From the NCBI RefSeq assembly GCF_044324785.1, contig NZ_CP172127.1: a DNA stretch of 64,000 nucleotides; one strand, given 5' to 3'. Positions 1 through 32,013 of the stretch are shown one piece after another. The DNA is from Escherichia coli. GTDB lineage: Bacteria; Pseudomonadota; Gammaproteobacteria; Enterobacterales; Enterobacteriaceae. The position numbers and the translations under genes are program-made. Numbering within the stretch: the stretch's first letter is position 1; every line of letters begins with the position of its first letter. The notes beneath the pieces are model-generated. The model did not search any database and had not been told where the DNA came from. It saw only the letters and a list, made by a program, of their open reading frames with translations.

Positions 1-1742
1 GCTTCGTCTTCTTTTGCCTGCACAACAGGGATAAAAAAAGCATGCCCCAGCATATGTTCTCTATCGTATAAAACCTGGATGCGATCGTTAAGCGTCTGCA
101 ATAGACGAGGCAGATCAATACCTTTAATGACAGTATCTTTCAGAACAGTAATATCTGGCAGCATCGCTTCAAAATCAAATCTGCGACGTAGTGCAGTATC
201 AAGTGCAGTAAGCGAATGATCGGCAGTGTTCATGGTACCAATTAAATAAAGGTTATTCGGTACACTAAATGGAGTGGAAGAGTATGGCAGCAATACGCTA
301 AGCGATTCTGGCTCACCAGCCCGTTTAGATGGCTCAATAAGAGTAATTAGTTCACCAAAAATTTTTGAAATATTACCCCGATTTATTTCATCAATAATGA
401 GAACATAGTTTTCCTTTTTTTCTGAAGCTACGCTCTGAGTATTCAGAGGCAGATAACGTTGATTAATTAAATAGTTAAGGATACTGCGTACATAAGATGG
501 ATTATGTACTTTTGCTCGTGGATCCTGATAAACTTGCCGAATATCCTTCAAATAGGCATTGTAACCCTGTCCTAAATCCTCTTTTTTCGATTGTGACGGG
601 AAAATTCCAAAGTTGGTTTGACTTTTATACGTCAGCTGGAAGGCCTTACCCTGTTGTGTTTCCAGCGTGATATTTTCACCTTCAGATAAACGTTCTTGTA
701 GGCGAGTAAGTGCGCTATCCAACATTTCCTGCGCACCAGCATGACCAAAGGCGGCATCCTCGCATATCTGTTTAAAAATACCTGCCTTTATTTCGTATTT
801 TACATTACCGTCATCAGTAGTCTCAGCTCTTAAACCTTCAATAAACTCTTCATAACCAAAGCTCTGATGAAAGGTGATAAAACGCACTCGATTATCTTTG
901 ATAAGCTGATCATAAATCTTTTTCAACTCGCGACGTTTTTCACTCTCATCCTTACCCTCCTGCAGGGAGTAAGCGATCGGATCACAAATTTGTACAGCAA
1001 GCTCAATAGTACGATATGTTTTACCTGTACCTGGCGGGCCATAGAGAATTGTGTTTTTAGGCAATGGCGAACTTATAATATCATCTTCTTGCTCATTTTC
1101 TTGTAAAGCACTTTCGCTTCCAACTAAACCGATAGCATTTTTATCCTGAATTTCATACGCATAGAGATGCCAAAGTGACATATTCAGCTCAATAGGGTCG
1201 ATATCATCACCCAGCGCACGATTTAGCGTTTCTTTAAGATCAACATTGCGAGCCAGCCACTCCCGTTCTCCGGAAAGACCTAGCTGGAAATGGTTGTTGC
1301 AATAATTGTAGCAACTAAAAAAATTATTAACATTCACGACACTGCTAATTTTTGATGGGTATATTGCTGCAAAAGCACGATTACAAAGAGCCCTATATAC
1401 CTTATTTAATACTCCGTCCGCTTTAAGTTTGATAAGGCGTTCAATGACCCGATTATAATTTTCTTGTGTACACTCTTCTGCTATCTGACGGGTGAGCGTT
1501 AGAAGGTCTTTTTGTGCATTTTCAAATTCAACCAATGACATCCCTCCTTGCATCAGGCTGGAGACACCATTGTCACGTTCATACCATACCTGCCGAATCG
1601 TGGCTTCAGAAAAGTTTGGTTTTTCGGCCTGAATCTGTTCTACAAGCTGGCGGTAGTGTTTGCCCCAAACTGAATTGTATTGATTATTTTTTTCAATTTG
1701 AGCACGAAAGAAGGGGGCTAATGCTGATGAATCCTGAACCAT
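1..1742 (-). CDS. McrB-family GTPase (AAA+ NTPase subunit of a McrBC-like modification-dependent restriction system); N-terminal ~580 aa present, 3' end runs off the window
   Basis: Minus-strand frame is open from the ATG at 1742 to position 1, with a stop 2 codons upstream of the ATG. Reverse translation gives Walker A GPPGTGKT, the McrB hallmark FHQSFGYEEFIEG and Walker B LIIDEINRGN. The ~440-aa region N-terminal to the NTPase does not resemble the K-12 McrB DNA-binding domain. Confidence 0.75.
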   Translation of the reverse strand, partial: MVQDSSALAPFFRAQIEKNNQYNSVWGKHYRQLVEQIQAEKPNFSEATIRQVWYERDNGVSSLMQGGMSLVEFENAQKDLLTLTRQIAEECTQENYNRVIERLIKLKADGVLNKVYRALCNRAFAAIYPSKISSVVNVNNFFSCYNYCNNHFQLGLSGEREWLARNVDLKETLNRALGDDIDPIELNMSLWHLYAYEIQDKNAIGLVGSESALQENEQEDDIISSPLPKNTILYGPPGTGKTYRTIELAVQICDPIAYSLQEGKDESEKRRELKKIYDQLIKDNRVRFITFHQSFGYEEFIEGLRAETTDDGNVKYEIKAGIFKQICEDAAFGHAGAQEMLDSALTRLQERLSEGENITLETQQGKAFQLTYKSQTNFGIFPSQSKKEDLGQGYNAYLKDIRQVYQDPRAKVHNPSYVRSILNYLINQRYLPLNTQSVASEKKENYVLIIDEINRGNISKIFGELITLIEPSKRAGEPESLSVLLPYSSTPFSVPNNLYLIGTMNTADHSLTALDTALRRRFDFEAMLPDITVLKDTVIKGIDLPRLLQTLNDRIQVLYDREHMLGHAFFIPVVQAKEDE

Positions 1743-2077
1743 CTCTTAATCCAATATGTAGGGGGGAGGGAAATTGGGATAGCCTTATCTTATCGGATTA
1801 ATCTCAAAAATGTTAAATTTTGTGATAAAAAAATAACTTTCATCCTGAAATTACCTTCTGCCCTGGAGCCACCACATTTATCTGATGACTTAACTGCAAA
1901 ACGCATGATGTTGATGGCTCTCAGAGAAGGCTATAGCATTCTTTCATACGTAAAATCGCTACTCGTTTTTCAACCTGTGTGAGGTTTCTAGTTGCATAGG
2001 GAATCAACTGTTTTTAGGTAAACATCGTTTCCAGTAAATGGATATGCCGAAATTCAGAGGGTTCCAGTAACGACATT

Positions 2078-2945
2078 ATTGAAAGCAAACATACGACATT
2101 CATTTTGCTGATAACGCTGACGGATAGTGCTTCGCCACAATGTCATTCATCTTATCCACCAGATCCAGTCGCTTGAATGTGATGTGTCCACTGCCTTTCT
2201 GAAAGTAGCGAATAGTGAACAACTCATCTTCGAAAATCTGCTGATGCGGATTATCGCGCACAAAATCCATAAACCGGATGGAGACATCATGCCGGTTATC
2301 GGGAATGGTCTTCCCATCCAGCAGGTAGAACATCCGTTCCAGATCGGCAAGCTGATCTCGCCGCCAGCCCCAGTTCAGGCTGTAGCCCCATCTGTCATGC
2401 TTCACCAGATTGTTAACGATAATCTTCTTACCGAAATAACAGGGATTATTGGTTTTGTAGTCCCAGCTTAACCCTTTAAATACATTGATAATCCCACGTT
2501 CGAAAACATCCCGTTTATTGTGGTGGAGTTGTTCAAAGGTACTCAGGATGTTGGCTTCGCTAATAGCCGGGAGATCGCCCTCCTCCAGGTTCTTTGCCCA
2601 CTGACTGCGGGCTTCGGCATCCATCAGGGTCAACATCCCGGACTTCAGCATGAGATCGCGCCAGATACCGCGGTCGATATTTCGGGTGATCACCGGCATC
2701 GCTTTGTCGGTTGGCTGCATCAGCCAGCAATCAAAGGCATATCCATTCCGCATTGCCCAGGTTCCAGCCACATTACCGCCAATACTGGATGTCAGGCTGG
2801 AGATATCATCCAGTTTTTGGATTAACGTCGCTATCTGGTTCAGTGCACTATCACGACCCGTCACGATACGCTCAATACTGGTCGAGCAAATTAGCTCGTT
2901 ATGATCGGTTAAGACTTCAGCTTCTGTTTGCATAATCTTTCATCC
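2078..2945. repeat. Copy A of an ~865-bp direct repeat (second copy at 11018..11885, ~95% identical)
   Basis: Manual alignment of the two regions shows near-identity across the whole 277/285-aa ORF and ~20 bp of flank; weaker similarity continues to ~3050 versus ~11975. Confidence 0.85.
2100..2933 (-). CDS. Conserved island-associated hypothetical protein (277 aa), paralog of 11025..11858
   Basis: Complete ORF with ATG start; protein is ~96% identical to the second copy. No family can be assigned from sequence alone. Confidence 0.6.
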   Translation of the reverse strand: MQTEAEVLTDHNELICSTSIERIVTGRDSALNQIATLIQKLDDISSLTSSIGGNVAGTWAMRNGYAFDCWLMQPTDKAMPVITRNIDRGIWRDLMLKSGMLTLMDAEARSQWAKNLEEGDLPAISEANILSTFEQLHHNKRDVFERGIINVFKGLSWDYKTNNPCYFGKKIIVNNLVKHDRWGYSLNWGWRRDQLADLERMFYLLDGKTIPDNRHDVSIRFMDFVRDNPHQQIFEDELFTIRYFQKGSGHITFKRLDLVDKMNDIVAKHYPSALSAK

Positions 2946-3239
2946 GTAAAAAAATACACTCGCCGTTAGTAGCAAACGGATTATCCACTGGTGAAAGATT
3001 GGGTAAATAATGAGATTGAAAATTGGGAAGATGACTCGCAATAAATTATCTGGTCGCCTACGGATGGGCGATGGGCATATAAAGTAGCCTCCTGACGCAA
3101 GCGGTGAATGCTGAGTAAGATGCACTAACAATCTGGTACTGAATCCCCTCCTCACCGTCATACAAATCTGAAAAACCAAACAACTTCCGGTAAAATCCCG
3201 GCAAAAGCCGACGTTAAAAACACATTCAAAGGATAAAAA

Positions 3240-4792
3240 ATGACCAGTCTTCAGCAGCGCGCGGAGCTTCATCGCCAAATCTGGCAAATTGCTAACGATG
3301 TCAGAGGTTCGGTCGATGGATGGGACTTTAAGCAATACGTTCTGGGCGCGCTTTTCTACCGTTTTATCAGCGAAAATTTTTCCAGCTATATTGAAGCCGG
3401 TGATGACAGCATCTGTTATGCGAAACTGGATGACAGCGTAATTACTGATGACATTAAAGACGATGCCATCAAAACCAAAGGCTACTTCATCTACCCAAGT
3501 CAGCTTTTCTGCAACGTAGCTGCGAAAGCAAATACCAATGACAGACTGAATGCAGATTTAAACAGCATCTTCGTTGCTATCGAAAGTTCTGCTTACGGTT
3601 ACCCTTCAGAAGCTGACATCAAAGGTTTGTTTGCTGATTTCGATACCACCAGTAACCGCCTGGGTAACACCGTTAAGGATAAAAATGCCCGCCTGGCCGC
3701 GGTTCTGAAAGGGGTTGAAGGATTAAAACTTGGTGACTTCAACGAACATCAGATTGACCTGTTCGGCGATGCCTATGAGTTCCTGATTTCTAACTATGCG
3801 GCGAATGCTGGTAAGTCAGGCGGCGAGTTCTTTACACCGCAGCACGTCTCTAAGCTGATTGCACAACTGGCTATGCACGGGCAGACCCACGTTAACAAAA
3901 TCTACGACCCGGCAGCAGGTTCCGGTTCGCTGTTGTTGCAGGCTAAAAAACAGTTCGATGACCACATCATCGAAGAAGGCTTTTTCGGTCAGGAAATCAA
4001 CCATACGACCTATAACCTGGCGCGTATGAACATGTTTTTGCACAACATCAACTACGACAAGTTTGATATCAAGCTGGGCAATACGCTGACTGAGCCGCAC
4101 TTCAGAGATGAAAAACCGTTTGATGCCATCGTTTCTAACCCACCGTATTCGGTGAAATGGATTGGCAGCGATGATCCGACGCTGATTAACGATGAGCGTT
4201 TTGCCCCAGCTGGCGTCCTGGCCCCCAAATCAAAAGCTGACTTCGCGTTTGTATTACATGCGCTGAACTATCTTTCTGCCAAAGGTCGTGCTGCGATTGT
4301 CTGCTTCCCGGGCATTTTTTACCGTGGCGGCGCGGAGCAGAAAATCCGTCAGTATCTGGTTGACAATAACTATGTCGAAACCGTGATTTCACTCGCACCG
4401 AACCTGTTCTTTGGCACCACCATTGCCGTAAATATTCTGGTGCTGTCTAAACATAAAACGGATACCAAAGTTCAGTTTATTGACGCCAGCGAACTGTTCA
4501 AAAAAGAGACTAACAACAACATCCTGACCGATGCCCATATAGAAAAAATTATGCAGGTATTTGCCAGCAAGGAAGATGTTGCTCATCTGGCGAAATCTGT
4601 TGCGTTTGAGACTGTTGTCGCGAATGACTATAACCTGTCGGTGAGCAGCTATGTGGAAGCGAAAGATAACCGCGAAATTATCGATATCGGTGAGCTGAAT
4701 GCTGAGCTGAAAACCACGGTCAGCAAAATCGACCAGTTGCGCAAAGATATTGATGCGATTGTGGCTGAAATTGAAGGCTGCGAGGTGCAGAA

Positions 4793-4796
<4 letters not shown>
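3240..4796 (+). CDS. hsdM: Type I restriction-modification system methyltransferase subunit HsdM (type IC-like, EcoR124/Ecoprr family)
   Basis: 518-aa ORF with AAGGA ribosome-binding site; N6-adenine methyltransferase motif NPPY ([11 protein letters not shown]) and AdoMet motif DPAAGSGSL. Gene order M-S-R with hsdS starting inside the hsdM stop (ATGA) matches type IC organisation. Confidence 0.9.
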
Positions 4797-5962
<1,166 letters not shown>

Positions 5963-6083
5963 TTGACCATTATTACAGACCGGACCATCTTAATATCCGG
6001 TCAGTATATAGACTATTTTTTACACGCCGGAAGTCACCATTAACCCCCTTCCGGCCCTTGCCAGACGGCACAAAGGATGCGCT

Positions 6084-9000
6084 ATGACTCATCAAACACA
6101 CACCATTGCTGAATCCAATAACTTTATCGTTCTTGATAAGTACATCAAAGCTGAGCAAACAGGCGACAGCTATCAGAGCGAATCGGACCTGGAACGTGAA
6201 CTGATTCAGGACCTGCGGAATCAGGGCTATGAATTTATATCCGTAAAATCACAGTCGGCGATGCTGGTCAATGTTCGACAACAGGTTCAGAACCTCAATG
6301 GTGTGGTGTTTAATGACAGCGAATGGCGACGTTTCACGGAGCAGTATCTGGACAACCCGAGCGATGGTATTCTGGATAAGACCCGTAAAATCCATATCGA
6401 CTATATTTGCGACTTTATTTTTGATGACGGGCGTCTTGAGAATATCTATCTGATAGATAAAAAGAATCTCATGCGCAACAAGGTGCAGATTATCCAGCAG
6501 TTTGAACAGGCAGGTTCTCACGCTAACCGTTATGACGTCACGATCCTGGTTAATGGCTTGCCGCTGGTGCAAATCGAACTGAAAAAGCGCGGCGTGGCGA
6601 TTCGTGAGGCTTTCAACCAGATACATCGTTACAGTAAAGAGAGTTTTAACAGCGAAAATTCTCTGTTTAAGTATCTGCAACTGTTTGTCATTTCTAACGG
6701 CACCGATACCCGTTACTTTGCCAACACCACAAAGCGTGATAAAAACAGTTTTGACTTCACAATGAACTGGGCGAAATCAGACAACACGCTGATTAAAGAC
6801 CTCAAAGATTTTACCGCTACCTTTTTCCAGAAACATACTCTGCTTAATGTTCTGGTGAACTACAGCGTGTTCGATATTAGCCAGACGCTACTGGTGATGC
6901 GACCGTACCAGATTGCCGCCACCGAACGAATCTTATGGAAAATCAACAGCTCCTATAAAGCGAAAAACTGGTCTAACCCCGAAAGTGGTGGCTTTATCTG
7001 GCACACTACCGGTTCTGGTAAAACACTGACCAGCTTTAAAGCCGCGCGTCTGGCAACAGAACTGGACTTTATTGATAAAGTCTTCTTCGTGGTCGACAGG
7101 AAAGATCTCGATTACCAGACCATGAAGGAATATCAGCGTTTTTCGCCAGATAGTGTTAATGGCTCGGAAAATACCGCAGGCCTTAAACGAAATCTGGATA
7201 AGGACGATAACAAAATTATCGTCACCACTATTCAGAAACTTAATAACCTGATGAAAGCAGAAAGCGACCTGCCTGTATACAATCAGCAAGTGGTGTTTAT
7301 ATTTGATGAATGCCACCGCAGCCAGTTTGGAGAAGCGCAGAAAAACCTGAAGAAGAAATTCAAACGCTATTATCAGTTTGGTTTTACCGGTACCCCTATT
7401 TTCCCGGAAAACGCTTTAGGTTCAGAAACGACCGCCAGCGTATTTGGTCGTGAATTGCATTCATATGTGATTACCGATGCGATTCGAGATGAAAAAGTGC
7501 TTAAATTCAAGGTGGACTATAACGATGTGCGGCCACAGTTTAAGTCTTTAGAGACAGAAACCGACGAGAAAAAACTGAGTGCGGCTGAAAATCAACTGGC
7601 GTTCCTTCATCCCATGCGTATTCAGGAAATCACGCAATATATCCTGAACAACTTCCGCCAGAAGACCCACCGTACTTACCCCGGCTCCAAAGGTTTTAAT
7701 GCCATGCTGGCAGTAAGCAGCGTGGATGCCGCGAAAGCCTATTACGCGACATTTAAACGGTTACAAGAAGAAGCCGCTAATAAATCTGCAACTTATAAAC
7801 CACTGCGTGTTGCAACAATCTTCTCCTTTGCCGCTAATGAAGAACAAAATGCCATTGGTGAAATTTTCGATGAAACTTTTGATACCAGCGCAATGGACAG
7901 CAGTGCTAAAGAGTTTCTTGACGCTGCAATTCGTGAGTATAACAGCTATTTTAAAACTAACTTCAGCACCGACAGTAACGGTTTTCAGAACTACTATCGT
8001 GATTTAGCCCAACGGGTTAAAAATCAGGATATCGATCTGTTAATTGTCGTGGGGATGTTTTTAACCGGCTTCGATGCTCCAACATTGAACACGCTATTCG
8101 TCGATAAAAACTTGCGTTTTCACGGTCTGATGCAGGCATTTTCCCGCACCAACCGCATTTATGACGCCACTAAAACCTTCGGTAACATTGTCACTTTTCG
8201 GGATCTGGAACGCTCAACCATTGATGCCATAACGCTGTTTGGTGATAAAAATACCAAAAATGTGGTGTTAGAAAAGAGTTATGCAGAGTATATGGAAGGT
8301 TTTACTGATGCTGCCACCGGTGAAGCCAAACGCGGCTTTATGGCAGTAGTTTCAGAACTGGAACAACGGTTCCCTGACCCTGCCAGTATTGAAAGTGAAA
8401 AAGAGAAGAAAGACTTCGTAAAACTGTTTGGTGAATACCTGCGTGCCGAGAACATTCTGCAAAACTATGATGAATTTGCCACGCTGAAAGCCCTGCAACA
8501 AATCGATCTTAGCGATCCTGTTGCGGTAGAAAAATTCAAAGAAGAACATTATGTGGATGATGAAAAGTTCGCTGAATTACAAACGATTCGTCTCCCTGCT
8601 GATCGCAAGATTCAGGATTACCGTTCAGCCTATAACGATATTCGTGACTGGCAGCGCCGTGAGAAAGAAGCTGACAAAAAAGAAAAATCAACCACCGACT
8701 GGGATGACGTGGTTTTTGAGGTCGATTTGCTGAAGTCTCAGGAAATAAACCTGGATTATATCCTTGGACTGATTTTCGAACACAACAGACAAAACAAAGG
8801 TAAGGGCGAAATGACCGAAGAGGTCAAACGCTTAATTCGTTCAAGCCTTGGGAACCGTGCCAAAGAAGGATTGGTGGTCGATTTTATTCAGCAAACGAAC
8901 CTGGATGATTTGCCGGATAAAGCCAGCATCATTGACGCGTTCTTTACCTTTGCTCAACGCGAACAGCAACGTGAAGCAGAAGCATTGATCAAAGAAGAAA

Positions 9001-9200
9001 ATCTCAATGAAGAGGCGGCGAAACGCTATATTCGCACGTCTTTAAAACGCGAATACGCCACCGAAAATGGCACGGAATTAAACGAGACATTGCCAAAACT
9101 CAGTCCGTTAAATCCGCAATATAAGACGAAAAAACAGACGGTTTTCCAGAAGATCGTCGCGTTTATTGAGAAGTTTAAAGGTGTAGGCGGGCAGATATAA
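6084..9200 (+). CDS. hsdR: Type I restriction enzyme endonuclease/translocase subunit HsdR (type IC-like)
   Basis: 1038 aa; superfamily-2 helicase motifs TGSGKT (Walker A) and DECHRSQ (DEAH box), N-terminal nuclease region; AAGGA ribosome-binding site; follows hsdMS as in type IC loci. Confidence 0.9.
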
Positions 9201-9214
9201 TGTATTAATCCGAA

Positions 9215-9244
9215 CCTGATCTGGCAGATAGCTGTCAGATCAGG
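9215..9244. terminator. 9-bp-stem inverted repeat between convergent hsdR and abiEii (possible bidirectional terminator)
   Basis: CCTGATCTG-12 nt-CAGATCAGG immediately after the hsdR stop; no strong U-tract, so efficiency is uncertain. Confidence 0.35.
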
Positions 9245-9619
9245 ACTGAGCTAATACAAATTAATATCGAACCGAAAATACCAACGCCTGTACCAACATT
9301 TTTCGTTTGCGATGGGTTGGAATTGGTTAGCCCTGAGAGAGTTAAAATAGCGAGAAAGATAGGTAACTAATGGATCACTGGTACAAAAAAAGCCGCTCTT
9401 GAGCGACTTGATTTGCATACGGTGTGGTGCGAAGGCCGGACCGCTCTTTCAAACATAATTCATTGAAATTAATGTGATTTATTAACCCAAAAATCATTTT
9501 GTATACTCACATGTATACTCAGCGCGATTCTCTGAGAAATCAACAACCTGAATAATCAGTCGGTACTTTAACGCTTCACAATGTTTATCGGAATTTCAAG
9601 TAAAGACAAATGCTGCATA

Positions 9620-10567
9620 TCAAGCATTCAGGATGGATAACGCTAAGCTCCTAAACCTGGAGTAAGCCTCATCCCATGTGATCTTTCGCTCTCCATACAC
9701 CATTGGCGAAACAAACTGCTGATAGCGCATCTGGTAGAGAGGATTGTTCGCCAGCTCATCCAGTCCCATTTTTAGCTCATCAACTGGAGACGCGCAAAAC
9801 TGCGGGTACTGGTTGCCGTAACGTTGAATGTCCTGCTCAATAGTTTGTTGAACAAAATCAACGAGCAGACTCATATCAACATGACTCGTCTCAACAATAC
9901 AGTTTGTATCGTAGATATGACGTACCAGCGATGCATCATCAAATCGCTCAACATCTCGCACAACTGCCGCAGTACGGCGTAACATCGCCACCAGCTTTTC
10001 AGCCTGTGTGCTAATGATAGTTGCGCATGGAAACGCTGAAACAATAGCCGCTTTTCCCGTGATCCCTGTTACCAGTGAATGAATATCCCGTAATTCAGAA
10101 GGCTCCAGTAACTTCGCTTCCATCAATTCCAGCCGGATAAAAGGACGCAAACAAGGTGCCTGCACCACTCGCTGTGGATAACGAACAGGTATGTCATTAT
10201 AACGATATTCATCCCGCGTCACTTTTGGGTAATCATCATCAAAATTGAACACACCCGATGAAGCTATTGCACTGGAAACTGCCTGAACAATTTCTTTACG
10301 GGTATTTTTTCGCTGAGTGCGGGAAAGTGCCTGAAATGCATCCTTAGGCACCAGTTTGATATCCACATCTTCCGACATGCGATTAAGTGCGACACCTGAT
10401 TTTGCCAGAGCGGTTCCTCCGGCAAACACCAATTGATGAGTATCGAACACCAGAGGTTTAAGCAATTGCAAAAGCTCAACGATATAGTGATCTTTTTCCA
10501 CAATTGCGACAGACTCAATACCAAGCGCGTCAGCCACTTCAGAAAAAAGAGTGGTTAAATCATCCAT
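9620..10567 (-). CDS. AbiEii/AbiGii-family nucleotidyltransferase toxin (type IV toxin-antitoxin / abortive infection)
   Basis: 315 aa; nucleotidyltransferase-fold motif LVFAGGTAL near the N-terminus; overlaps the upstream small wHTH gene by 8 bp, the typical AbiEi-AbiEii arrangement. Confidence 0.7.
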   Translation of the reverse strand: MDDLTTLFSEVADALGIESVAIVEKDHYIVELLQLLKPLVFDTHQLVFAGGTALAKSGVALNRMSEDVDIKLVPKDAFQALSRTQRKNTRKEIVQAVSSAIASSGVFNFDDDYPKVTRDEYRYNDIPVRYPQRVVQAPCLRPFIRLELMEAKLLEPSELRDIHSLVTGITGKAAIVSAFPCATIISTQAEKLVAMLRRTAAVVRDVERFDDASLVRHIYDTNCIVETSHVDMSLLVDFVQQTIEQDIQRYGNQYPQFCASPVDELKMGLDELANNPLYQMRYQQFVSPMVYGERKITWDEAYSRFRSLALSILNA

Positions 10568-10955
10568 TTAATCTGCTGTTCCCTACAGATAATACGCGTT
10601 TAAAACGCCGGGGGGTTTTTATCTCGGGTGAAGCTGGGATCTGCGTAGAAGTACCGCTATTGTATGCCTGCGTTGCGCCAGCAAAACGATAGCGTACTTT
10701 CAGGCGTTCCAGCGTTTCGACAATCACCGCTGAAGAGCCTCCGGGAGCCGCTGGCATTACCTTGCCTGTAATACCGTTCCGCCGTGCTTTGGTATACACG
10801 CCATAACCAACCTTCAACAGTTGCCCTTCCCTGACAAGATCGCGCAATACCCGACCAACCTGATCGTAGCCTGCAATATCTTTAAAGTCGTCACGAGTGA
10901 ATACGTAACGTTTAGAACGTTTCAGTCGTGACTGAATGCGTGCTTTTATCGTCAT
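10560..10955 (-). CDS. AbiEi-like antitoxin / winged-helix regulator (short form, ~131 aa)
   Basis: Start chosen at the ATG preceded by AGGAGG (MTIKARIQ...); the ORF-track start at 11024 abuts the upstream gene and lacks a ribosome-binding site. Basic N-terminus; translationally coupled to the toxin. Confidence 0.55.
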   Translation of the reverse strand: MTIKARIQSRLKRSKRYVFTRDDFKDIAGYDQVGRVLRDLVREGQLLKVGYGVYTKARRNGITGKVMPAAPGGSSAVIVETLERLKVRYRFAGATQAYNSGTSTQIPASPEIKTPRRFKRVLSVGNSRLNG

Positions 10956-11017
10956 ATTCGCCTCCTGAGTCATTGCATAAAGAGTAGCAAAAATACGACA
11001 TTTTAGATAGCAAACAT

Positions 11018-11885
11018 ACGACATTCATTTTGCTGATAACGCTGACGGAAAGTGCTTCGCCACGATATCATTCATCTTATCCACCAGATCCAGCCGCTTG
11101 AATGTGATATGCCCACTGCCCTTCTGAAAGTAGCGAATAGTGAACAACTCATCTTCGAAAATCTGCTGATGCGGATTATCGCGCACAAAATCCATAAACC
11201 GGATGGAGACATCATGCCGGTTATCGGGAATGGTCTTCCCATCCAGCAGGTAGAACATCCGTTCCAGATCGGCAAGCTGATCTCGCCGCCAGCCCCAGTT
11301 CAGGCTGTAGCCCCATCTGTCATGCTTCACCAGATTGTTAACGATAATCTTCTTACCGAAATAACAGGGATTATTGGTTTTGTAGTCCCAGCTCAATCCC
11401 TTAAATACATTGATAACCCCACGTTCGAAAACGTCCTGCTTATTGTGGTGGAGTTGTTCAAAGGTACTCAGGATGTTGGCTTCGCTAATCGCCGGGAGAT
11501 CGCCCTCCTCCAGGTTCTTTGCCCACTGACTGCGGGCTTCGGCATCCATCAGAGTCAACATCCCGGACTTCAGCATGAGATCGCGCCAGATGCTGCGATC
11601 GATATTGCGGGTGATCGCCGACATCGCTTTGTCGGTTGGTTGCATCAACCAGCAGTCAAAGGCATATCCATTACGCATTCCCCAGGTTCCAGCCACATCA
11701 CCGCCAATACTGGATGTCAGACTGGAGATATCATGAAGTTTTTGGATTAACGTCGCTATCTGGTTCAGTGCACTATCACGACCCGTCACGATACGTTCAA
11801 TGCTGGTCGAGCAAATTAGTTCGTTATGATCGGTTAAGACTTCAGCTTCTGTTTGCATAATCTTTTGTCCGTATAAAAGCAAATG
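11018..11885. repeat. Copy B of the ~865-bp direct repeat (see 2078..2945)
   Basis: Manual alignment, ~95% identity. Confidence 0.85.
11025..11858 (-). CDS. Conserved island-associated hypothetical protein (277 aa from MQTEAEV), paralog of 2100..2933
   Basis: Start set at the ATG corresponding to the start of copy A; the ORF track extends 8 codons further upstream. Confidence 0.6.
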   Translation of the reverse strand: MQTEAEVLTDHNELICSTSIERIVTGRDSALNQIATLIQKLHDISSLTSSIGGDVAGTWGMRNGYAFDCWLMQPTDKAMSAITRNIDRSIWRDLMLKSGMLTLMDAEARSQWAKNLEEGDLPAISEANILSTFEQLHHNKQDVFERGVINVFKGLSWDYKTNNPCYFGKKIIVNNLVKHDRWGYSLNWGWRRDQLADLERMFYLLDGKTIPDNRHDVSIRFMDFVRDNPHQQIFEDELFTIRYFQKGSGHITFKRLDLVDKMNDIVAKHFPSALSAK

Positions 11886-11972
11886 CGCCAGCCATGAACA
11901 GCAGGCGCATTATGCAGGGAGTTATGAGGGAAGTAATTTTGGCGATGTAAATCGGGAAGGAGACTCGCAGAT

Positions 11973-12314
11973 TCACCGTACCGTGGTGTTATGGCAGCGG
12001 CGCAGCAGACCTGTAGCCTGCCGCGCCCGTAAAATATCGACCGCACGAAGATAAGGCGTCTGTTCCTGCCAGCTAAATCCTTTCCTGTCGATACGGATCA
12101 ATTCGTACTTCTCCACCAAAAAATTGATGGCATCGACCAGAGTGATTCCGGCATCTATGTGTTCCTGAATCACCTTTTCATTGTTGAATGGTGTGTCATT
12201 AAGATTCAGCCCGTAGTGCTGCTCCAGCAGGCGGGCCAGTAATATTTGCCAGACCACGACGGGCGACAGATATGACGTCGTCGCCCGCAGCGTCGTTGCA
12301 GGAATAATTTTCAT
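11973..12314 (-). CDS. CbtA/YeeV/YkfI-family toxin (type IV toxin-antitoxin; cytoskeleton-targeting toxin family)
   Basis: 113 aa; strong recalled similarity to YeeV ([21 protein letters not shown]...IQEHIDAGI...VNFLVEKY...[11 protein letters not shown]). Confidence 0.8.
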
Positions 12315-12344
12315 AACGATGTTCCGTATTAAGGAGGTTAAAAC

Positions 12345-12680
12345 TCAGCGTTGAGTGGGATAAATAGCGATATAGACGTAACCACAGGAACCCAGCGTAT
12401 CGGCTTCGCAGGTTAGTCCTTTGGCGTATAGCGTGACGGTACGTTGTTGGCAGGGGGAGAGTTCACCGTCAGCCAGTTTCAGCTCCAGTTGTTTCATCAG
12501 CACCGGAAAAGCCTGGTCGATATGCAGCAGATCCGGGGAGCTGAATTTCCCGGTGATTGCGGCCCGATCAGCTAGGTAATGCAGGTTATGTCTTTCCTGT
12601 ACCAGTCGAGCAGTGAAGCGTGGTGTTACGGTACAGGGAAGCCCCCATTCTTGTTGCATGACCTTGTCCTTTTGCAGCAT
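12345..12680 (-). CDS. CbeA/YeeU/YafW-family antitoxin
   Basis: 111 aa; recalled similarity to YeeU (WGLPCTVTP-F-ARLVQE...LHYLADRA...LMKQLEL...TVTLYAKGLTC-ADTLGSCGYVY); directly upstream of the toxin. Confidence 0.8.
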   Translation of the reverse strand: MLQKDKVMQQEWGLPCTVTPRFTARLVQERHNLHYLADRAAITGKFSSPDLLHIDQAFPVLMKQLELKLADGELSPCQQRTVTLYAKGLTCEADTLGSCGYVYIAIYPTQR

Positions 12681-13153
12681 TACAGCCAGCCCCGTTCGGC
12701 AAAAGAGAGGACATCCCCCGCCCCAATAATGAAATGATCCAGCACCCTCACTTTCACCAAATCCAGTGTCTTAACAATATTCGTTGTAATAAGTCTGTCG
12801 GCCCGACTGGGTTTCGTCACGCCGGAGGGATGGTTATGCGCAAGGATCACTGCTGCGGCATTGTGCCGTAGCGCAGATTTCACAATCTCACGGGGATGTA
12901 CTTCTGTGCTGTTAATCGTGCCGAGAAATAGCGTTTCGTGTTCCAGCAGTCGGTTCTGGTTATCGAGGTAGAGCACAACAAACATTTCCCGCTCCTGTCG
13001 TGCCAGATGCAGTTGCAGCCAGGTTTTTGTGGAGTCAGAGGAAAGAAAAGATTCGCCAGGATTGCGTTGATATTTCTCCAGCAGACGCATCGCACGGCGG
13101 ATAGCGCGTTGTTCACTCACCGAAAATACCGGTGTTAGCATCAGTTCAGACAT
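12680..13153 (-). CDS. RadC-like JAB/MPN-domain protein (YeeS/YkfG/YfjY family)
   Basis: 157 aa with the JAMM-like motif HNHPSG; stop overlaps the antitoxin start by 1 nt, typical of CP4-like islands. Confidence 0.8.
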   Translation of the reverse strand: MSELMLTPVFSVSEQRAIRRAMRLLEKYQRNPGESFLSSDSTKTWLQLHLARQEREMFVVLYLDNQNRLLEHETLFLGTINSTEVHPREIVKSALRHNAAAVILAHNHPSGVTKPSRADRLITTNIVKTLDLVKVRVLDHFIIGAGDVLSFAERGWL

Positions 13154-13182
13154 CGTATTTCCTTTACTATTAATAGCGTTGT

Positions 13183-14001
13183 TTATGAGGCCAGTTGCAA
13201 CATGTTTTCAGCCATCACCCACAGGGCGCGGTTGAGCCTGACATCACCGTCGATGCCTTTAATGGCGCGGGTGTGCGTGCGACCACCTTTTGCCGTGCGC
13301 CCGTTTAAACCACCTTTGATCAGGTTCTCCTGAATACGCTGGTAGGTCGTCCACAGATCGCCGGATTCATCCTGCCAGCGGCGGGGAGCCAGCAACTGGG
13401 ATTCCGTCACTGGCTGGTGCTCTTCGCCAAAGCGGTACGTCAGCGCCGCCTTTGCCAGCGCCTGTTGCGCAGGGGGTGGCAGCATCAGCGACTGCATGGC
13501 ATCGCGTTTCTCTTCAACCTGGTCAAAAACACTGAGGACTTCATAAGCGCCTTCAATCACTTTCTCCACCACATTGCCTTTATGCGGTACCCGTACTTCA
13601 CCAAACGACTCGCCGCAGACCAGTCCGTTACAACAAACAGATCGGAACAGCCCTGGCAGCATCTGATATGAACTGGAACCGTCATGGCTGTTGAGAAGAA
13701 TAATTTCCGGCACCTGGTTGCGATTGATCTGGTCTTCCCGGCGCAGACGCAGCATGTGTTTTGTATGCTCACGTTTACCCACATCACGAACGCGGGTCTG
13801 GCAGGCAAAGAAAGGATGAAATCCTTCACGCTGGAGGTTATCGAGCAGAGTAATGGTGGGAATATAGGTATAGCGTTCGCTGCGTGATTCGTGCTTATTT
13901 TCCCCAAATACGCTGGGGACATACTGCATCAGTTCGTCATGAGTTAATGGGCGATCGCGACGGATTTGATTTACGTGACCAAAGCGGCTGGCTAATTTCA
14001 T
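13183..14001 (-). CDS. CP4-like island conserved protein (272 aa; tentatively DUF932/YfjQ-YafZ-like)
   Basis: Size and position in a CP4-57/CP4-6-like gene block; family assignment is from memory and unverified. Confidence 0.45.
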   Translation of the reverse strand: MKLASRFGHVNQIRRDRPLTHDELMQYVPSVFGENKHESRSERYTYIPTITLLDNLQREGFHPFFACQTRVRDVGKREHTKHMLRLRREDQINRNQVPEIILLNSHDGSSSYQMLPGLFRSVCCNGLVCGESFGEVRVPHKGNVVEKVIEGAYEVLSVFDQVEEKRDAMQSLMLPPPAQQALAKAALTYRFGEEHQPVTESQLLAPRRWQDESGDLWTTYQRIQENLIKGGLNGRTAKGGRTHTRAIKGIDGDVRLNRALWVMAENMLQLAS

Positions 14002-14187
14002 GGTGAATTCCTTAATAAAGAATATAAAAAACAGGCCGCATCTTCTGAAAAATTGCGGCTAATTTAATGCGTGATTAAAACGGACGGTAGTATAGGTGGG
14101 ATAAAATAACAGGTACGTGCAGATATTAAATTACATTCCGGCAGTGAATATATGAAAGTGATATAGTGCTGAAATAATACATATCTG

Positions 14188-14218
14188 AATTCTCCCGGTG
14201 ATAGTCACCGGGAGAATT
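14188..14218. terminator. Perfect 14-bp-arm palindrome (AATTCTCCCGGTGA-TAG-TCACCGGGAGAATT) downstream of the 284-aa gene
   Basis: Read directly; lies 19 bp after the stop of 14237..15091 on the minus strand; weak U-tract. Confidence 0.45.
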
Positions 14219-14236
14219 TAAGTTTGAAATGACACC

Positions 14237-15091
14237 TCAACCACGGGATAATCTTGTTTCTATTCCCTGAACTCTTTCGTCTATTAACCTTTCAATAACA
14301 GATATTTTATCTGACTTGTAAAATTTAACCAGAAAATCCAGACGCTCTTTATGCGTATCACTGATAGACTCCCTTTCCCGTTTTTCAGAAAGTTTACGTC
14401 TGAAGTTTTTTTGGTAAAACGCTTTATTTATTTTCTTTACCGCTTTCTGCTGGAGGTCATCATCCGCTGACCATAAATCCAGCATGGCATAAACGGCGTG
14501 ATAGGTTTCTACACTATTCAGTGGTTCCGGGATTTGAACGGGGTCTAAATGGTTTCCTGTATTACTACCGTGCTCTTTCTGGAATTTATTAATGTAATTA
14601 TAAGCCCATATACAGACTTCGTCATTATCCTCATTAAGCCAGCGTAATTTTATTCTCTGATGTTCATTTGCCCTCCAGAATACAAGCCTCTCATATAGCC
14701 ACTGTCTCATCAACGGTGCCTGATTAGTCTCAATATTAATATAGTCCAGTAATGCAACGATGATTGAGTATCTTTCGCTATGACTTGCAGGAGAATCTGT
14801 TATTCCGGCTTTCTGATACCAGTTAATGTTTAAATTTGTGCCCAGCTTTTCGTTAATTGACTCCATACAGCGGTAATCAAGACACATCACGCCCCATAGC
14901 CAGAACGTCGCTCTTTCATTTTCTTTTAACCAACTAAAATATTTCTCCGGCAGAAGCATCGTATTAATCGACAGCTCCAGTGAGCGAATAAAATTACTTC
15001 GCTGAATGGGATCGGGATACCCGACCTCGAGGGCTGTATTAATAATTCTCTCCGAAAGGAGATGTATCTGGATTGTTCCCGTCAAACGCAA
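14237..15091 (-). CDS. Hypothetical protein (284 aa), AT-rich, no recognisable motifs
   Basis: ORF-track start is TTG (GGGAG lies 11 nt upstream); the first in-frame ATG is at codon 45, so the true start is uncertain. Preceded by a ~690-bp ORF-free AT-rich region. Confidence 0.45.
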   Translation of the reverse strand: MRLTGTIQIHLLSERIINTALEVGYPDPIQRSNFIRSLELSINTMLLPEKYFSWLKENERATFWLWGVMCLDYRCMESINEKLGTNLNINWYQKAGITDSPASHSERYSIIVALLDYINIETNQAPLMRQWLYERLVFWRANEHQRIKLRWLNEDNDEVCIWAYNYINKFQKEHGSNTGNHLDPVQIPEPLNSVETYHAVYAMLDLWSADDDLQQKAVKKINKAFYQKNFRRKLSEKRERESISDTHKERLDFLVKFYKSDKISVIERLIDERVQGIETRLSRG

Positions 15092-15783
15092 ATTGATTTG
15101 CTCCCTGAATGTTTTTCCTGATGTACCAGAAAAGAAACCTGCTGGTTCGGATGTCCTTCACTGCTATTGATGAGCGCACATTAACGGCCATTGTTCTACC
15201 TCGTCATCCTTGTTAAATCAGCAAAAAGCAATAGCGTAATTATGACGTGTTTTTGAAGTAAAACCGTAGCAATAAATCAATAAAAGTGGGAAATGCGTAG
15301 TAATATCGTGTTATTCCATAGTAATAGAGTACCATTAACGTAGTTTTTTATTTATCACCATACTCACAGCTTCCGCCCGTAGAAAACGGCTGGATAGTCT
15401 TAAATTTTTCCACGTATAGCCCTGGTGGCTTTACGGGTGAAACCTCCCAGGATAACGAGTTGACATCTGGAAGATGTCATTCATGACCGCAACTCATAGA
15501 TTAGATCAATGTATTAATTATAACTTAAGAGTGAAATCCTTTATCTTCAGGAACAGATAATTAACTACGAACACCAGTAAATACCGGGCTTCTACTCTTT
15601 TTATCACCCTTTCTTTATGAATCAACATTGCCGGTATTAATATTATGTTTATCACTCATTCATTAGATTCAGCATATAGAGGGATGACACCAGAGACAGG
15701 GAAAAGTAATCCAGATCGGCATAGCTCAGTGAAAAGTTACTACAGCACTTATGGATATGTAACCAACCACAAGGAACTGAAGC

Positions 15784-16398
15784 ATGAAACTGAATGAACG
15801 ATATGGCAAGCCTAATGCACACTATATGAAACGTCTGGAAGAGATTACTCGCTATGCGATGGATGATTACGCCAGAATACTGGCTTTCAGAGTGGATTTA
15901 TTACTGCCAGTGGATAATAGCCATAAAGGGTATGACTCAGCGGTTATTACCCGTTTTATAGCCTCACTGAAAGCACAGATAGCCGCATATTTACAACGGC
16001 GCAGGAGAGACGGTAAACGTGTTTACCCCTGTAAGCTGCGATATGCATGGGTAAGAGAATTTGGTGAACTGAATGGCAACAAGCATTATCACATGCTGTT
16101 GTTGGTTAATCGGGAAGTATTCAGGAATACCATGCTGAATACGGAGAATTCAGCGCAACCTCGCGGATTGCTGGTGGGAATGGTAGCGCGAGCATGGGCT
16201 GTGGCGCTTAGACGTACCGAAGATATGGCAAATAAAGTCCCCTTTCATTTACCAGGCGTCTCTTATGAACTGGATCGCAGAAATGGCACAAATACGGACT
16301 TTTTCCGCAGCTACATATACCACATCAGTTATCTGGCGAAGGAGTACACCAAAAACCACGATGACGGTGAACGTAACTTTGGTTGTAGTCAGGGATAA
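15784..16398 (+). CDS. YagK/YfjJ-family protein (inovirus Gp2-like domain)
   Basis: 204 aa; recalled similarity to CP4-57 YfjJ / CP4-6 YagK; conserved HYHMLLL motif. Confidence 0.65.
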   Translation: MKLNERYGKPNAHYMKRLEEITRYAMDDYARILAFRVDLLLPVDNSHKGYDSAVITRFIASLKAQIAAYLQRRRRDGKRVYPCKLRYAWVREFGELNGNKHYHMLLLVNREVFRNTMLNTENSAQPRGLLVGMVARAWAVALRRTEDMANKVPFHLPGVSYELDRRNGTNTDFFRSYIYHISYLAKEYTKNHDDGERNFGCSQG

Positions 16399-16515
16399 GT
16401 AATTTATTACCGGAGAAGTGATTGTAATGGCGGAGTATGCAACATCATCTTAAATTAATGGGTTAGTGTTGCTGCTCCTGTCTTTTATCAACGTAAAGAC
16501 AGAAGGACAATCGTC

Positions 16516-16734
16516 ATGAAAAATCAACCGAATACCGATACTGACCTGATGAATGACAAACTGGTGACGATGGCATTTATTACCACGTTTACTGGCCTGA
16601 CTGACAAATGGTTTTATAAACTGATTAGTGAAGGCAAGTTTCCAAAGCCTGTCAAGCTGGGGCGTAGTTCCCGCTGGCGGGAAAGTGAAGTTAAACGCTG
16701 GCTGACGGAACGTATTGCAGAATCCCGCAATTAA
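16516..16734 (+). CDS. alpA: AlpA-family phage regulatory protein (small HTH DNA-binding protein)
   Basis: 72 aa; AGAAGGA ribosome-binding site; typical AlpA size and a C-terminal SRWRESEVKRWL motif. Confidence 0.7.
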   Translation: MKNQPNTDTDLMNDKLVTMAFITTFTGLTDKWFYKLISEGKFPKPVKLGRSSRWRESEVKRWLTERIAESRN

Positions 16735-16953
16735 TCTCCCTGACACTCTCTCTACACGCCTTCCCCGTAAGCATTAATCAGCACAAATGCTATATCAATA
16801 AGCGTCTGACAGGGCCGTTGCTGTGCATCTATCGACGCGTAACTTCATTATACCCGGATGAAATACGTTTCGTTTAACGTTGTCGAAAAATAATTAACCG
16901 GAGAATAGCCTGCTTATTTAGCAGGAATTCCCCGGATACAGCCACAGATAAAA

Positions 16954-17739: not shown

Positions 17740-17751
17740 TAAGCACTTTCC

Positions 17752-19520: not shown

Positions 19521-20062
19521 GGTATTGATACGGGAGATTATGCCGTACAGGTACGACACGTTATGTCGTACCAAAGGGGAGTGGATAGAAAAAATGGCGA
19601 AGATGCGAAAAGTTTATTAATGCATTGAAAAAGATGAATTAATAATGAACTTGGGTAAAAGCGCCATCAAAATACGACACGACCTGTCGTATTTTGTGTT
19701 AGCCGGGAAAGGATATCTGCTACTTACTAAAATGATTTAGTGCTGAAAATATTTGTAAGCCAATAAATAGACCGGTATTACGGAGTAACGCCCAGGCTAT
19801 GTTAACGAGCCCGCTGTTTTATTGGCTCAAAAAACATATCCCAGAGATGATCAGCCATACCCTCGTTAGTGAGCAAGGTATCCCTTGAGTAGCCATGGCT
19901 GAAGACGCCCATTGATGGGCGAAAACCAAGGTTCTGGCCGTTAGAACAGTTATGTCGTTAAACACATCACCACCATATGCCATCCGGCTCACTTCGTCGG
20001 CCAAATTAGTGTGATATTCTTTTCAGAATTCCTGTTGTATCCACAACATAAGGCGATGATTG

Positions 20063-23476: not shown

Positions 23477-23490
23477 TACGCACATGACAA

Positions 23491-23516
23491 GCCCCGGCAG
23501 CGGGGCTTTTGTATTT
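23491..23516 (+). terminator. Rho-independent terminator between hsdR and hsdM
   Basis: GC hairpin GCCCCG-GCAG-CGGGGC followed by TTTTGTATTT, 15 bp after the hsdR stop. Confidence 0.7.
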
Positions 23517-23539
23517 AAAACAGGATATAAAAGCTAACA

Positions 23540-30889: not shown

Positions 30890-31038
30890 CTCGTTGCCTG
30901 GTTAGTTTGTGAAATGAATTTTGATTATAAATCTTCTTTATTGGTTCATGTAAGAAATCGGCACTGCCTTTTGACCGATAGCTGATATAGTATGTCTAAG
31001 TTATGATGATATAACATTTCTTACCTTGGATAGTAACA

Positions 31039-32004: not shown

Positions 32005-32013
32005 TTATCGCTG

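What the first reader, a model, noticed from the sequence alone, without database searches (positions are those of the whole stretch)
1..1742. McrB-family GTPase with a long non-canonical N-terminal domain
The NTPase core has the McrB motifs (GPPGTGKT, FHQSFGYEEF, DEINR), but the ~440 aa preceding it do not resemble the K-12 McrB methylcytosine-binding domain. In McrBC-like systems the N-terminal domain sets which DNA modification is targeted, so this may be a type IV system with a different modification specificity. The partner McrC-like nuclease should lie just beyond the window start.
Basis: partly seen in the sequence, partly recalled or inferred. Interest (0 to 1): 0.45.

Follow-up and report, generated by a model that had tools for sequence, protein, structure and literature searches.

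The report
McrBC restriction system with glycosylase-like sensor
This is the motor subunit of an uncharacterised E. coli McrBC-type restriction system whose DNA-reading domain is not the known methylcytosine reader but a helical module that looks like a disabled DNA-repair glycosylase, so it probably attacks phage DNA carrying some other, unusual base modification.

Summary
The gene is real. It lies on the minus strand (start ATG at 1742) and runs off the window start, so 580 of 684 codons are present. All McrB GTPase motifs are there. The N-terminal domain is about 215 aa, not 440, because Walker A sits at aa 235-242. A separate insertion of about 115 aa lies inside the GTPase domain.

In a 99.6%-identical E. 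coli genome an McrC gene with an intact PD..DxK motif follows, overlapping by 4 nt.

A 2025 preprint on END nucleases reports glycosylase-like sensors that read hypermodified phage DNA and mentions untested McrB fusions.

Verdict: a type IV McrBC variant with a probable inactive-glycosylase-like sensor. Its target is unknown. Moderate interest.

The parts
1..1742 (-). mcrB-family gene, first 580 of 684 codons (start ATG at 1742-1740; C-terminal 104 codons lie beyond the window start)
   Evidence: Open frame. Differs from the 684-aa 'McrB family protein' WP_052893673.1 of E. coli A25 at only 4 of 580 residues. PDB McrB hits E 1e-52.
1098..1742 (-). N-terminal all-alpha domain, aa 1-215: proposed modification sensor (HhH-GPD/Ogg-like fold, probably catalytically inactive)
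1056..1097 (-). acidic low-confidence linker, aa ~216-229 (SESALQENEQEDDIISSPLP)
   Evidence: pLDDT falls to 60-75 at the end of the N-domain model; sequence.
1017..1040 (-). Walker A / P-loop GPPGTGKT (aa 235-242)
   Evidence: aligned to the TgMcrB P-loop
843..872 (-). FHQSFGYEEF motif (aa 291-300), corresponding to the McrB helix-2 beta-hairpin insert that contacts the McrC finger tip in TgMcrBC
   Evidence: Aligned to 'FITFHQSYSYEEFIEG' of 6ut3. The role of the hairpin is taken from PMC7680126.
411..752 (-). ~115-aa insertion inside the GTPase domain (aa ~331-444): small alpha/beta domain of unknown fold and function
378..392 (-). Walker B DEINR (aa 451-455)
219..233 (-). McrB signature MNTAD; NxxD = N505..D508 (canonical NxxD clade, not the NxD CoCoNuT clade)
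   Evidence: clade definition from PMC11090510
177..188 (-). RRRF (aa 519-522) in the conserved 'DTALRRRF' segment of the McrB core
   Evidence: Nearly invariant in 50 homologues; aligned to 'DVALRRRF' of TgMcrB.

Best explanation
Window 1-1742 (minus strand) encodes most of the GTPase/motor subunit of an accessory type IV (modification-dependent) McrBC restriction system. It sits in the leuX defence island of E. coli.

Shown: the protein has a complete McrB AAA+ GTPase core (Walker A, Walker B, NxxD). In near-identical genomes it is translationally coupled to a McrC with an intact PD..DxK nuclease motif.

Inferred: the 215-aa N-terminal all-alpha domain is the target sensor. It is a derivative of the HhH-GPD (Ogg/EndoIII-type) DNA-glycosylase fold that has lost catalysis. 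It still engages DNA and probes a flipped-out non-canonical base, using a set of invariant Trp, Asn and Arg residues (W26, W53, N58, R122, W162, N187, W191). Binding to modified phage DNA would tether McrB hexamers. McrC would insert through the ring and stimulate GTP hydrolysis. Translocation and collision would then lead to double-strand cleavage by McrC, as in EcoKMcrBC and TgMcrBC.

The host carries Dam, Dcm and type I methylation, so the target is most likely a phage hypermodified base rather than simple m6A or m5C. One candidate, by analogy with END nucleases, is a 7-deazaguanine derivative. The ~115-aa insertion in the GTPase domain is an additional peripheral module of unknown role, possibly a second DNA contact.
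For: The McrB core motifs are present and the protein matches solved McrB structures at E 1e-52.

McrC family gene: it overlaps mcrB by 4 nt in strain A25 (99.6% identical). Pfam McrBC scores E 5e-100. It aligns to TgMcrC (E 6e-18) and EcMcrC, with P326-D327...D344-x-K346 on the catalytic PD...DxK.

Modularity: the same domain (hhalign probability 100%, E 2e-49, 194 columns) is fused in other bacteria to a C-terminal module with invariant D...ExK...Q and weak PDDEXK_9 hits. This includes minimal 363-aa proteins made of only these two modules. One of them sits inside a type I RM operon (L003). A Vibrio McrB homologue lies in hsdR-hsdM-hsdS-mcrB-mcrC (L002).

No column of the domain alignment is a conserved Asp, Glu or Lys, so it is probably not an enzyme.

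Literature: the END-nuclease preprint PMC12191111 shows that inactive EndoIII/Ogg-like sensors determine targeting of hypermodified phage DNA. It reports the sensor fused to a NucS-like PD-DExK nuclease (END-Mag, whose HHpred hits are archaeal and T. maritima Ogg) and to McrB-like GTPases. HhH-superfamily proteins are antiphage defences against 7-deazaguanine phages (bioRxiv 10.1101/2025.10.29.685425).

Against: No sequence-level signal to HhH-GPD proteins was found by profile-versus-PDB or hhalign against E. coli Nth.

I could not obtain any END sequence, so homology with the published iEndoIII sensor is untested.

In about half of the full-length relatives the domain is preceded by another N-terminal region. 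One representative of the largest extension cluster gives only a sub-threshold EVE match (E 0.05). Among 50 full-length members, one has an EVE hit and two have MrcB_N hits.

The McrC gene is not in the window itself. The target modification is pure inference.
Confidence: 0.55

Rival explanations
1. The helical N-terminal module is not the specificity element. It would be a constant adaptor, oligomerisation or regulatory domain of one McrB subfamily. DNA recognition would then be provided by the insertion in the GTPase domain, or in relatives by the extra N-terminal domains. This 'reader-less' E. coli protein could have relaxed or no modification specificity.
For: 56 of the 127 homologues carry an additional 95-500 aa region upstream of the module. 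One representative of the largest cluster of these extensions gives a weak EVE hit. Single full-length members hit EVE or MrcB_N. The module always sits 30-40 aa before Walker A. Bell et al. suggest that GTPase-domain insertions encode specificity domains.
Against: Minimal architectures exist in which the module is the only non-catalytic domain. This holds both with McrB (this protein and ~25 representative clusters) and with a small PD-(D/E)xK module (P0109, P0105, 363-374 aa). Some relatives keep the module but lack the insertion (Walker A to Walker B of 100-114 aa). Tandem reader domains are common in type IV enzymes (general knowledge). The module's only long structural matches are DNA-binding glycosylases. 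The insertion has no recognisable DNA-binding fold and a net charge of only +2.
Confidence: 0.2
2. It is simply another 5-methylcytosine/5-hydroxymethylcytosine-specific McrBC, as some database names say ('5-methylcytosine-specific restriction protein B').
For: JGI names for relatives. The GTPase core is related to EcMcrB. The system is adjacent to a type I RM system, like K-12 mcrBC.
Against: The N-domain has no similarity to the K-12 5mC reader or to Pfam MrcB_N. The NCBIfam McrB equivalog scores 105 bits against a cutoff of 637. The names are automatic transfers from the core. This does not exclude that the new domain also reads m5C-type bases, but an E. coli host with Dcm constrains that.
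Confidence: 0.08
3. The N-domain is an active HhH-GPD DNA glycosylase. It would excise modified bases, like the Dag or Brig1 defence glycosylases, and McrBC would process the abasic or nicked product.
For: The best structural matches are active glycosylases. HhH glycosylases act as stand-alone antiphage defences.
Against: No invariant Asp, Glu or Lys exists anywhere in 47 McrB-fused or 16 nuclease-fused domains. The most conserved acidic column is 81% D/E. By my manual alignment, which rests on sequences recalled from memory, the position expected for the catalytic Asp is Asn in this protein and varies among relatives (D, N, K, R, T, V).
Confidence: 0.05
4. The module links the effector to the neighbouring type I RM system. 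It would act as a guard that senses anti-restriction proteins or inhibition of type I RM (PrrC/EcoprrI-like logic), not DNA modification.
For: Both the McrB-fused and the nuclease-fused versions are found inside or beside type I RM operons (window; L002; L003).
Against: Association of McrBC with type I RM is a general feature of the K-12-type clade without functional dependence (PMC11090510). In the window the two are divergently oriented and separated by a DUF4942 gene that marks an island end. No evidence of protein-protein interaction is available.
Confidence: 0.05

Closest known systems
EcoKMcrBC (E. coli K-12 McrB/McrC)
   Same: The architecture is the same: an AAA+ GTPase with Walker A, Walker B and the NxxD signature, plus a downstream McrC with a PD-DxK nuclease. 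It also lies next to a type I RM system. The cores align at E 8e-30 and the McrC proteins at E 1e-5.
   Different: The N-terminal reader is unrelated: an all-alpha ~215 aa domain instead of the ~160-aa DUF3578 5mC-binding fold. There is an extra ~115-aa insertion between the FHQS motif and Walker B, where K-12 has about 8 residues between the corresponding helix and strand (from memory of the K-12 sequence). McrC is longer (436 vs 348 aa). The chromosomal site differs: the leuX hotspot, not the hsd-mrr immigration control region.
Thermococcus gammatolerans McrBC (PDB 6ut3/6ut5)
   Same: This is the closest solved relative of both subunits (McrB E 1.3e-52, McrC E 5.7e-18). It shares FHQSxxYEEFIEG, DEINRGNISKIFGEL and MNTAD.
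   Different: TgMcrB carries a YTH-like N-terminal reader (Hosford et al. 2020, cited in PMC12191111). Its region between the two aligned core blocks is ~64 aa versus ~115 aa here, with no detectable similarity.
END nucleases / iEndoIII sensors (END-PaCF1, END-Mag; bioRxiv 2025, PMC12191111)
   Same: The concept matches: a catalytically dead EndoIII/Ogg-like domain serves as sensor for non-canonical bases. The preprint lists the same two alternative effector partners that I find for this domain, a PD-(D/E)xK nuclease and a McrB-like GTPase. The best structural neighbours are the same proteins (T. maritima and archaeal Ogg).
   Different: The characterised END enzymes are single-chain PLD or NucS-like nucleases with a C-terminal sensor. 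Here the sensor is N-terminal to a GTP-driven motor that needs McrC. Direct sequence homology to the published sensors could not be tested. The McrB fusions were only mentioned in the preprint, not assayed.
HhH-GPD DNA glycosylases (Ogg2 Tm1821 3n0u, MjOgg 3knt, MIG, MutY, EndoIII) and defence glycosylases (Dag)
   Different: No sequence similarity is detectable. There is no recognisable GPD loop with an invariant Asp, and no catalytic Lys. The domain is fused to a motor instead of acting alone.

Membership tests
McrBC type IV restriction systems | McrB-type AAA+ GTPase core: P-loop GxxGxGK[ST], Walker B DExNR, signature NxxD | tested here: met
   GPPGTGKT 235-242, DEINR 451-455, MNTAD 504-508. 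Matches McrB structures at E 1e-52 and 8e-30. Partial match to the NCBIfam McrB model.
McrBC type IV restriction systems | Adjacent McrC partner (DUF2357/McrBC domain plus PD-(D/E)xK nuclease) | tested here: met
   Not visible in the window, because the gene would lie left of position 1. In E. coli A25 (99.6% identical over 3.3 kb) a 436-aa McrC overlaps mcrB by 4 nt. Pfam McrBC scores E 5e-100, and PD(326-327)...DxK(344-346) aligns to the TgMcrC and EcMcrC catalytic residues. 285 of 5426 complete genomes carry the whole block.
McrBC type IV restriction systems | GTP-dependent cleavage of modified DNA | not testable with these tools
   Needs biochemistry or plaque assays.
EcoKMcrB orthologue (5mC/5hmC-specific) | N-terminal DUF3578/MrcB_N methylcytosine-binding domain | tested here: not met
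   No PF12102 hit. The NCBIfam equivalog PRK11331 scores 105 bits against a cutoff of 637. The PDB alignment to full-length EcMcrB is limited to the AAA+ part.
CoCoNuT / NxD-clade McrB (Bell et al. 2024) | Shortened NxD signature and long coiled-coil fusions | tested here: not met
   The signature is N-T-A-D (NxxD). The N-domain is a compact helical globule, not a coiled coil. Definition from PMC11090510.
END-type sensor (inactive EndoIII/Ogg-like, 'iEndoIII') | HhH-GPD (EndoIII/Ogg) fold | tested here: inconclusive
END-type sensor (inactive EndoIII/Ogg-like, 'iEndoIII') | Loss of glycosylase catalytic residues | tested here: met
   No invariant Asp, Glu or Lys column in 47 + 16 aligned domains. 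This is meaningful only if the fold assignment is right.
END-type sensor (inactive EndoIII/Ogg-like, 'iEndoIII') | Same sensor combined with alternative nuclease effectors (modularity) | tested here: met
   The McrB-fused and PD-(D/E)xK-like-fused versions are homologous over 194 columns (probability 100%, E 2e-49).
END-type sensor (inactive EndoIII/Ogg-like, 'iEndoIII') | Sequence homology to the published sensors (END-PaCF1 CTD, END-Mag MDV2503288.1) | not tested
Cluster look-ups of the nuclease-fused relatives did not return that accession.
Active HhH-GPD DNA glycosylase | Invariant catalytic Asp (and Lys in bifunctional enzymes) after the HhH motif | tested here: not met
   the highest acidic conservation is 81% D/E at one column in the N-terminal lobe. 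There is none in the region following R122-x-F124...P129.

The most novel reading that the evidence does not exclude
An uncharacterised E. coli McrBC variant, found in roughly 5-10% of complete E. coli genomes and also in Yersinia pestis, Serratia, Erwinia and Vibrio, uses a catalytically dead Ogg/EndoIII-like glycosylase fold as a base-flipping sensor for hypermodified phage DNA such as 7-deazaguanines. This would couple a repair-enzyme-derived reader to a GTP-driven translocating nuclease. A second, structurally novel domain inserted in the GTPase ring would contribute to substrate handling. It would be the first McrBC known to read purine hypermodifications, and the reader domain family is absent from Pfam.
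Probability: 0.35. Interest if true: 0.6.

Novelty: new variant of a known kind. Interest (0 to 1): 0.45.

Why it matters
McrBC is the textbook modification-dependent restriction system, but only a handful of reader domains have been studied (DUF3578, YTH, EVE, B3-like). They read methylated or hydroxymethylated pyrimidines or m6A.

A reader derived from a glycosylase fold would extend the motor-nuclease to other chemistries, possibly modified purines. That would help explain phage host range in natural E. coli, because the gene pair sits in the busiest defence hotspot (leuX) of about 5-10% of strains. It also bears on phage therapy with hypermodified phages.

The work also defines a domain family with no Pfam model and two effector contexts. 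In addition it flags a ~115-aa insertion of unknown fold inside an AAA+ ring.

The system is directly testable in E. coli with existing phage panels.

Tried and rejected
1. Word-index protein searches with the N-domain and with its profile returned only 10 short fragments and no architectures. The exhaustive representative search was used instead.

2. Sequence and profile searches for a link to known folds all gave nothing significant.

3. The afdb50 fold library was unavailable, so annotated AlphaFold neighbours could not be consulted.

5. PADLOC gave only generic REase/AAA hits for McrB and none for McrC or DUF4942.

6. I tried to recover this strain's own left flank. No complete E. coli genome covers >=80% of window 1-14000, so McrC is documented only in near-identical relatives.

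7. I looked for the END-Mag accession among the nuclease-fused relatives and did not find it.

8. tblastn of the N-domain found nothing in phages and two E. coli records in plasmids. One is a divergent McrB+McrC pair and one is degraded.

9. I considered DUF4942 as a third component and rejected it. A 97%-identical second copy lies 9 kb away next to other island genes. It therefore looks like a recurrent island gene, not a McrBC partner.

10. I considered the CoCoNuT/NxD clade and rejected it, because the signature is NxxD.

Full report
**1. What is in the sequence**

The feature is a gene on the minus strand. Translation from the ATG at 1742-1740 gives an uninterrupted 580-codon frame that runs off the window start.

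- GPPGTGKT, aa 235-242, nt 1017-1040
- FHQSFGYEEF, aa 291-300, nt 843-872
- DEINR, aa 451-455, nt 378-392

The McrB signature MNTAD (NxxD, aa 504-508) and the conserved ALRRRF segment are there too.

Against solved structures the core matches Thermococcus gammatolerans McrB (6ut3, E 1.3e-52) and E. coli McrB (6hz4, E 8e-30). Pfam sees only AAA_5/AAA. The NCBIfam McrB equivalog is hit only partially, at 105 bits against a cutoff of 637. This is a McrB-family GTPase, not the K-12 orthologue.

Only about 215-230 residues precede the P-loop, not ~440. The number 440 is about where Walker B lies. The reason is an extra insertion of ~115 residues (aa ~331-444) between the FHQS-hairpin region and Walker B.

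**2. Extending the locus**

The window is E. coli chromosome. The first 3.3 kb match 540 of 5426 complete genomes, and 204 of them over at least 80% of the length. The best match is 99.6% identical.

In strain A25 (L001) the full protein is 684 aa. It differs from the window's 580 residues at four positions. It is followed by a 436-aa 'McrC family protein' that overlaps it by 4 nt.

That protein has the Pfam McrBC domain (E 5e-100). It aligns to TgMcrC (E 5.7e-18) and EcMcrC (E 1.2e-5), and its P326-D327...D344-V-K346 falls on their PD...DxK catalytic residues. It cannot be seen in the window itself, and no complete genome in the collection reproduces this strain's first 14 kb.

The block of PT-dependent HNH enzyme, mcrC and mcrB is present over at least 80% of its length in 285 of 5426 complete genomes. 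The protein's 90% cluster has 2170 member sequences, but the listing includes McrC entries as well as 'McrB family protein' entries, so this is not a count of the McrB protein. An ~80%-identical cluster occurs in Yersinia pestis, Serratia, Lelliottia, Erwinia and others.

The locus lies at the far end of a leuX-anchored island. The tRNA-Leu(CAA) is at 34642-34726 with an integrase at 33173-34519. This corresponds to the E. coli defence 'hotspot 37' discussed in PMC12707154.

**3. The N-terminal domain**

Residues 1-215 hit no Pfam, NCBIfam or PDB sequence.

An exhaustive search of 1.84 billion representative proteins found 127 homologues, 53 of them at E<=1e-10. In every full-length McrB-type hit the domain ends 30-40 residues before Walker A.

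About half of the hits carry a further 95-500 aa region upstream. One representative of the largest cluster of these extensions gives only a sub-threshold EVE match (E 0.05). Among the 50 full-length members scanned, one has a significant EVE hit and two have MrcB_N hits. In the E. coli protein and about 25 other representative clusters the domain is the extreme N-terminus.

With a 47-sequence alignment, AlphaFold2 gives a confident all-alpha model of ten helices (pLDDT 93.6, pTM 0.89).

**4. Evidence that the domain is a modular sensor**

Sixteen of the homologues are not McrB proteins. They are 350-530 aa proteins in which the same domain is followed by a ~150-aa module. The shared domain scores hhalign probability 100%, E 2e-49, over 194 columns. 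The C-terminal module has invariant D...E-x-K...Q residues and weak PDDEXK_9 hits, that is, a PD-(D/E)xK-type nuclease.

The smallest of them (363-374 aa) contain nothing else. One lies inside a type I RM operon directly after hsdM-hsdS (L003). A Vibrio McrB homologue sits in hsdR-hsdM-hsdS-mcrB-mcrC (L002).

One recognition module joined to interchangeable cleavage modules in restriction neighbourhoods is the hallmark of type IV readers.

Residues conserved across both sets are W26, Y30, W53, N58, G66, R122, F124, P129, W162, N187 and W191. No Asp, Glu or Lys column is invariant. That argues against glycosylase catalysis.

**5. Relation to the literature**

Bell et al. (PMC11090510) catalogued ~34,000 McrBC systems. 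They noted frequent insertions within the GTPase domain, 'likely encoding specificity domains', and defined NxD and NxxD clades. The present protein is NxxD.

A 2025 preprint (PMC12191111) describes END nucleases. In these, a catalytically inactive EndoIII/Ogg-like domain ('iEndoIII') determines targeting of hypermodified phage DNA. It reports the same sensor fused to a NucS-like PD-DExK nuclease: END-Mag, active against phages with modified guanine, with HHpred hits to S. solfataricus, M. jannaschii and T. maritima Ogg. It also reports fusion 'to the McrB-like GTPase', which was not tested.

My results are parallel: the same two effector partners and the same best structural neighbours. This makes it likely, but not shown, that the E. 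coli protein belongs to that McrB class. I could not obtain an END sequence to test homology.

Another 2025 preprint shows HhH-superfamily glycosylases acting as antiphage defences against 7-deazaguanine phages.

**6. The insertion**

Residues ~331-444 model as a small alpha/beta unit of one helix, four strands and two helices, with pLDDT >90 in the core. There is no credible structural neighbour and no similarity to the shorter region at the same place in TgMcrB. Several relatives keep the N-domain but lack the insertion (Walker A to Walker B of 100-114 aa), so the two are separable. Its role is unknown; I leave it as a possible accessory DNA contact.

**7. Mechanism proposed**

Shown: the McrB GTPase core, a coupled McrC nuclease in near-identical genomes, and a conserved foreign N-domain with modular distribution.

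Inferred from the EcoKMcrBC and TgMcrBC structures (PMC7680126): hexameric McrB, with McrC inserted through the pore stimulating GTP hydrolysis via the NxxD loop, then translocation and cleavage.

Inferred from fold and context: the N-domain binds DNA and interrogates a non-canonical base without excising it.

Inferred from host biology: the target is not Dam, Dcm or type I methylation, because the host carries these. A phage hypermodification is therefore more likely. Modified guanine is a candidate only by analogy with END-Mag.

**8. Rivals**

- The module may be an adaptor and the specificity may lie elsewhere. This is supported by the frequent extra N-terminal regions. It is countered by the minimal two-module architectures.
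- It may be an ordinary 5mC-specific McrBC. This is contradicted by the unrelated reader.
- It may be an active glycosylase fusion. There are no invariant catalytic residues.
- It may be a guard of type I RM. Only adjacency supports this.

**9. Verdict**

The system is a new variant of a known kind: an McrBC whose reader belongs to a family with no Pfam model, probably derived from an inactive glycosylase. It has been anticipated in one sentence of a recent preprint but is uncharacterised. It is moderately interesting and readily testable in E. coli.

Noticed in passing
window 2100-2933 (-) and 11025-11882 (-): Two DUF4942 genes, 269 of 278 aa identical, lie 9 kb apart. Each lies immediately beside a defence module: hsdMSR no.1 for the first, the AbiE pair for the second. 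They look like a repeated island gene or a segmental duplication, not McrBC partners.
   Followed up: partly
window 5318-5353 (within hsdS 4793-5962, +): The specificity subunit of the first type I RM system has three tandem 12-bp repeats (ACCGCTGAGCTT x3) encoding [12 protein letters not shown] in its central region. From memory, the copy number of this repeat sets the spacer length of the recognition sequence in the type IC EcoR124I/II family. This would be a potential specificity switch.
   Followed up: partly
window 3240-9200 (+) and 20060-26349 (+): Two complete type I RM systems lie in one island. They have different gene orders: hsdM-hsdS-hsdR, and hsdR-hsdM-hsdS. The second HsdR has an N-terminal DUF4145.
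   Followed up: partly
window 9620-11024 (-): An AbiEii nucleotidyltransferase toxin (E 5e-30) with an overlapping AbiEi-like/DUF6088 antitoxin gene. This is a type IV TA/abortive-infection pair between the two RM systems.
   Followed up: partly
window 27098-33002: A 1263-aa SIR2_2-domain protein (27098-30889, -), a PF06189 5'-nucleotidase-family protein (31039-32004, +) and an HNH_2 protein (32082-33002, -). They lie next to the leuX integrase (33173-34519) and are possibly further defence genes. The large SIR2 protein has no other recognised domain.
   Followed up: no
window 13183-18765 (-): DUF932 (13183-14001), two ORFs without a Pfam hit (14237-15091, 16954-17739) and a dynamin-like/MMR_HSR1 GTPase (17752-18765). 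These look like remnants of a CP4-type integrative element inside the island.
   Followed up: no
L001 9446-10318 (+), left of mcrC in E. coli A25: A 'phosphorothioated DNA-binding restriction endonuclease' (HNH_2) lies convergent with mcrC. Sequence homologous to it, often only a fragment, is found in 4872 of 5426 E. coli genomes, whereas the mcrBC pair is in only ~285. The mcrBC pair therefore looks like an insertion next to a widespread type IV gene.
   Followed up: partly
L005 (CP054241.1 470412-473766): A divergent paralogue: an 'AAA family ATPase' whose N-domain is 37% identical to this one, followed by a McrC family gene. A DNA cytosine methyltransferase lies 2 kb away. The record is an 834-kb E. 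coli 'plasmid'.
   Followed up: partly
P0115 (516 aa): One nuclease-fused relative carries a DUF3427 domain (E 2e-7) upstream of the shared helical domain. This is a three-module architecture of DUF3427, helical module and PD-(D/E)xK-like module.
   Followed up: no
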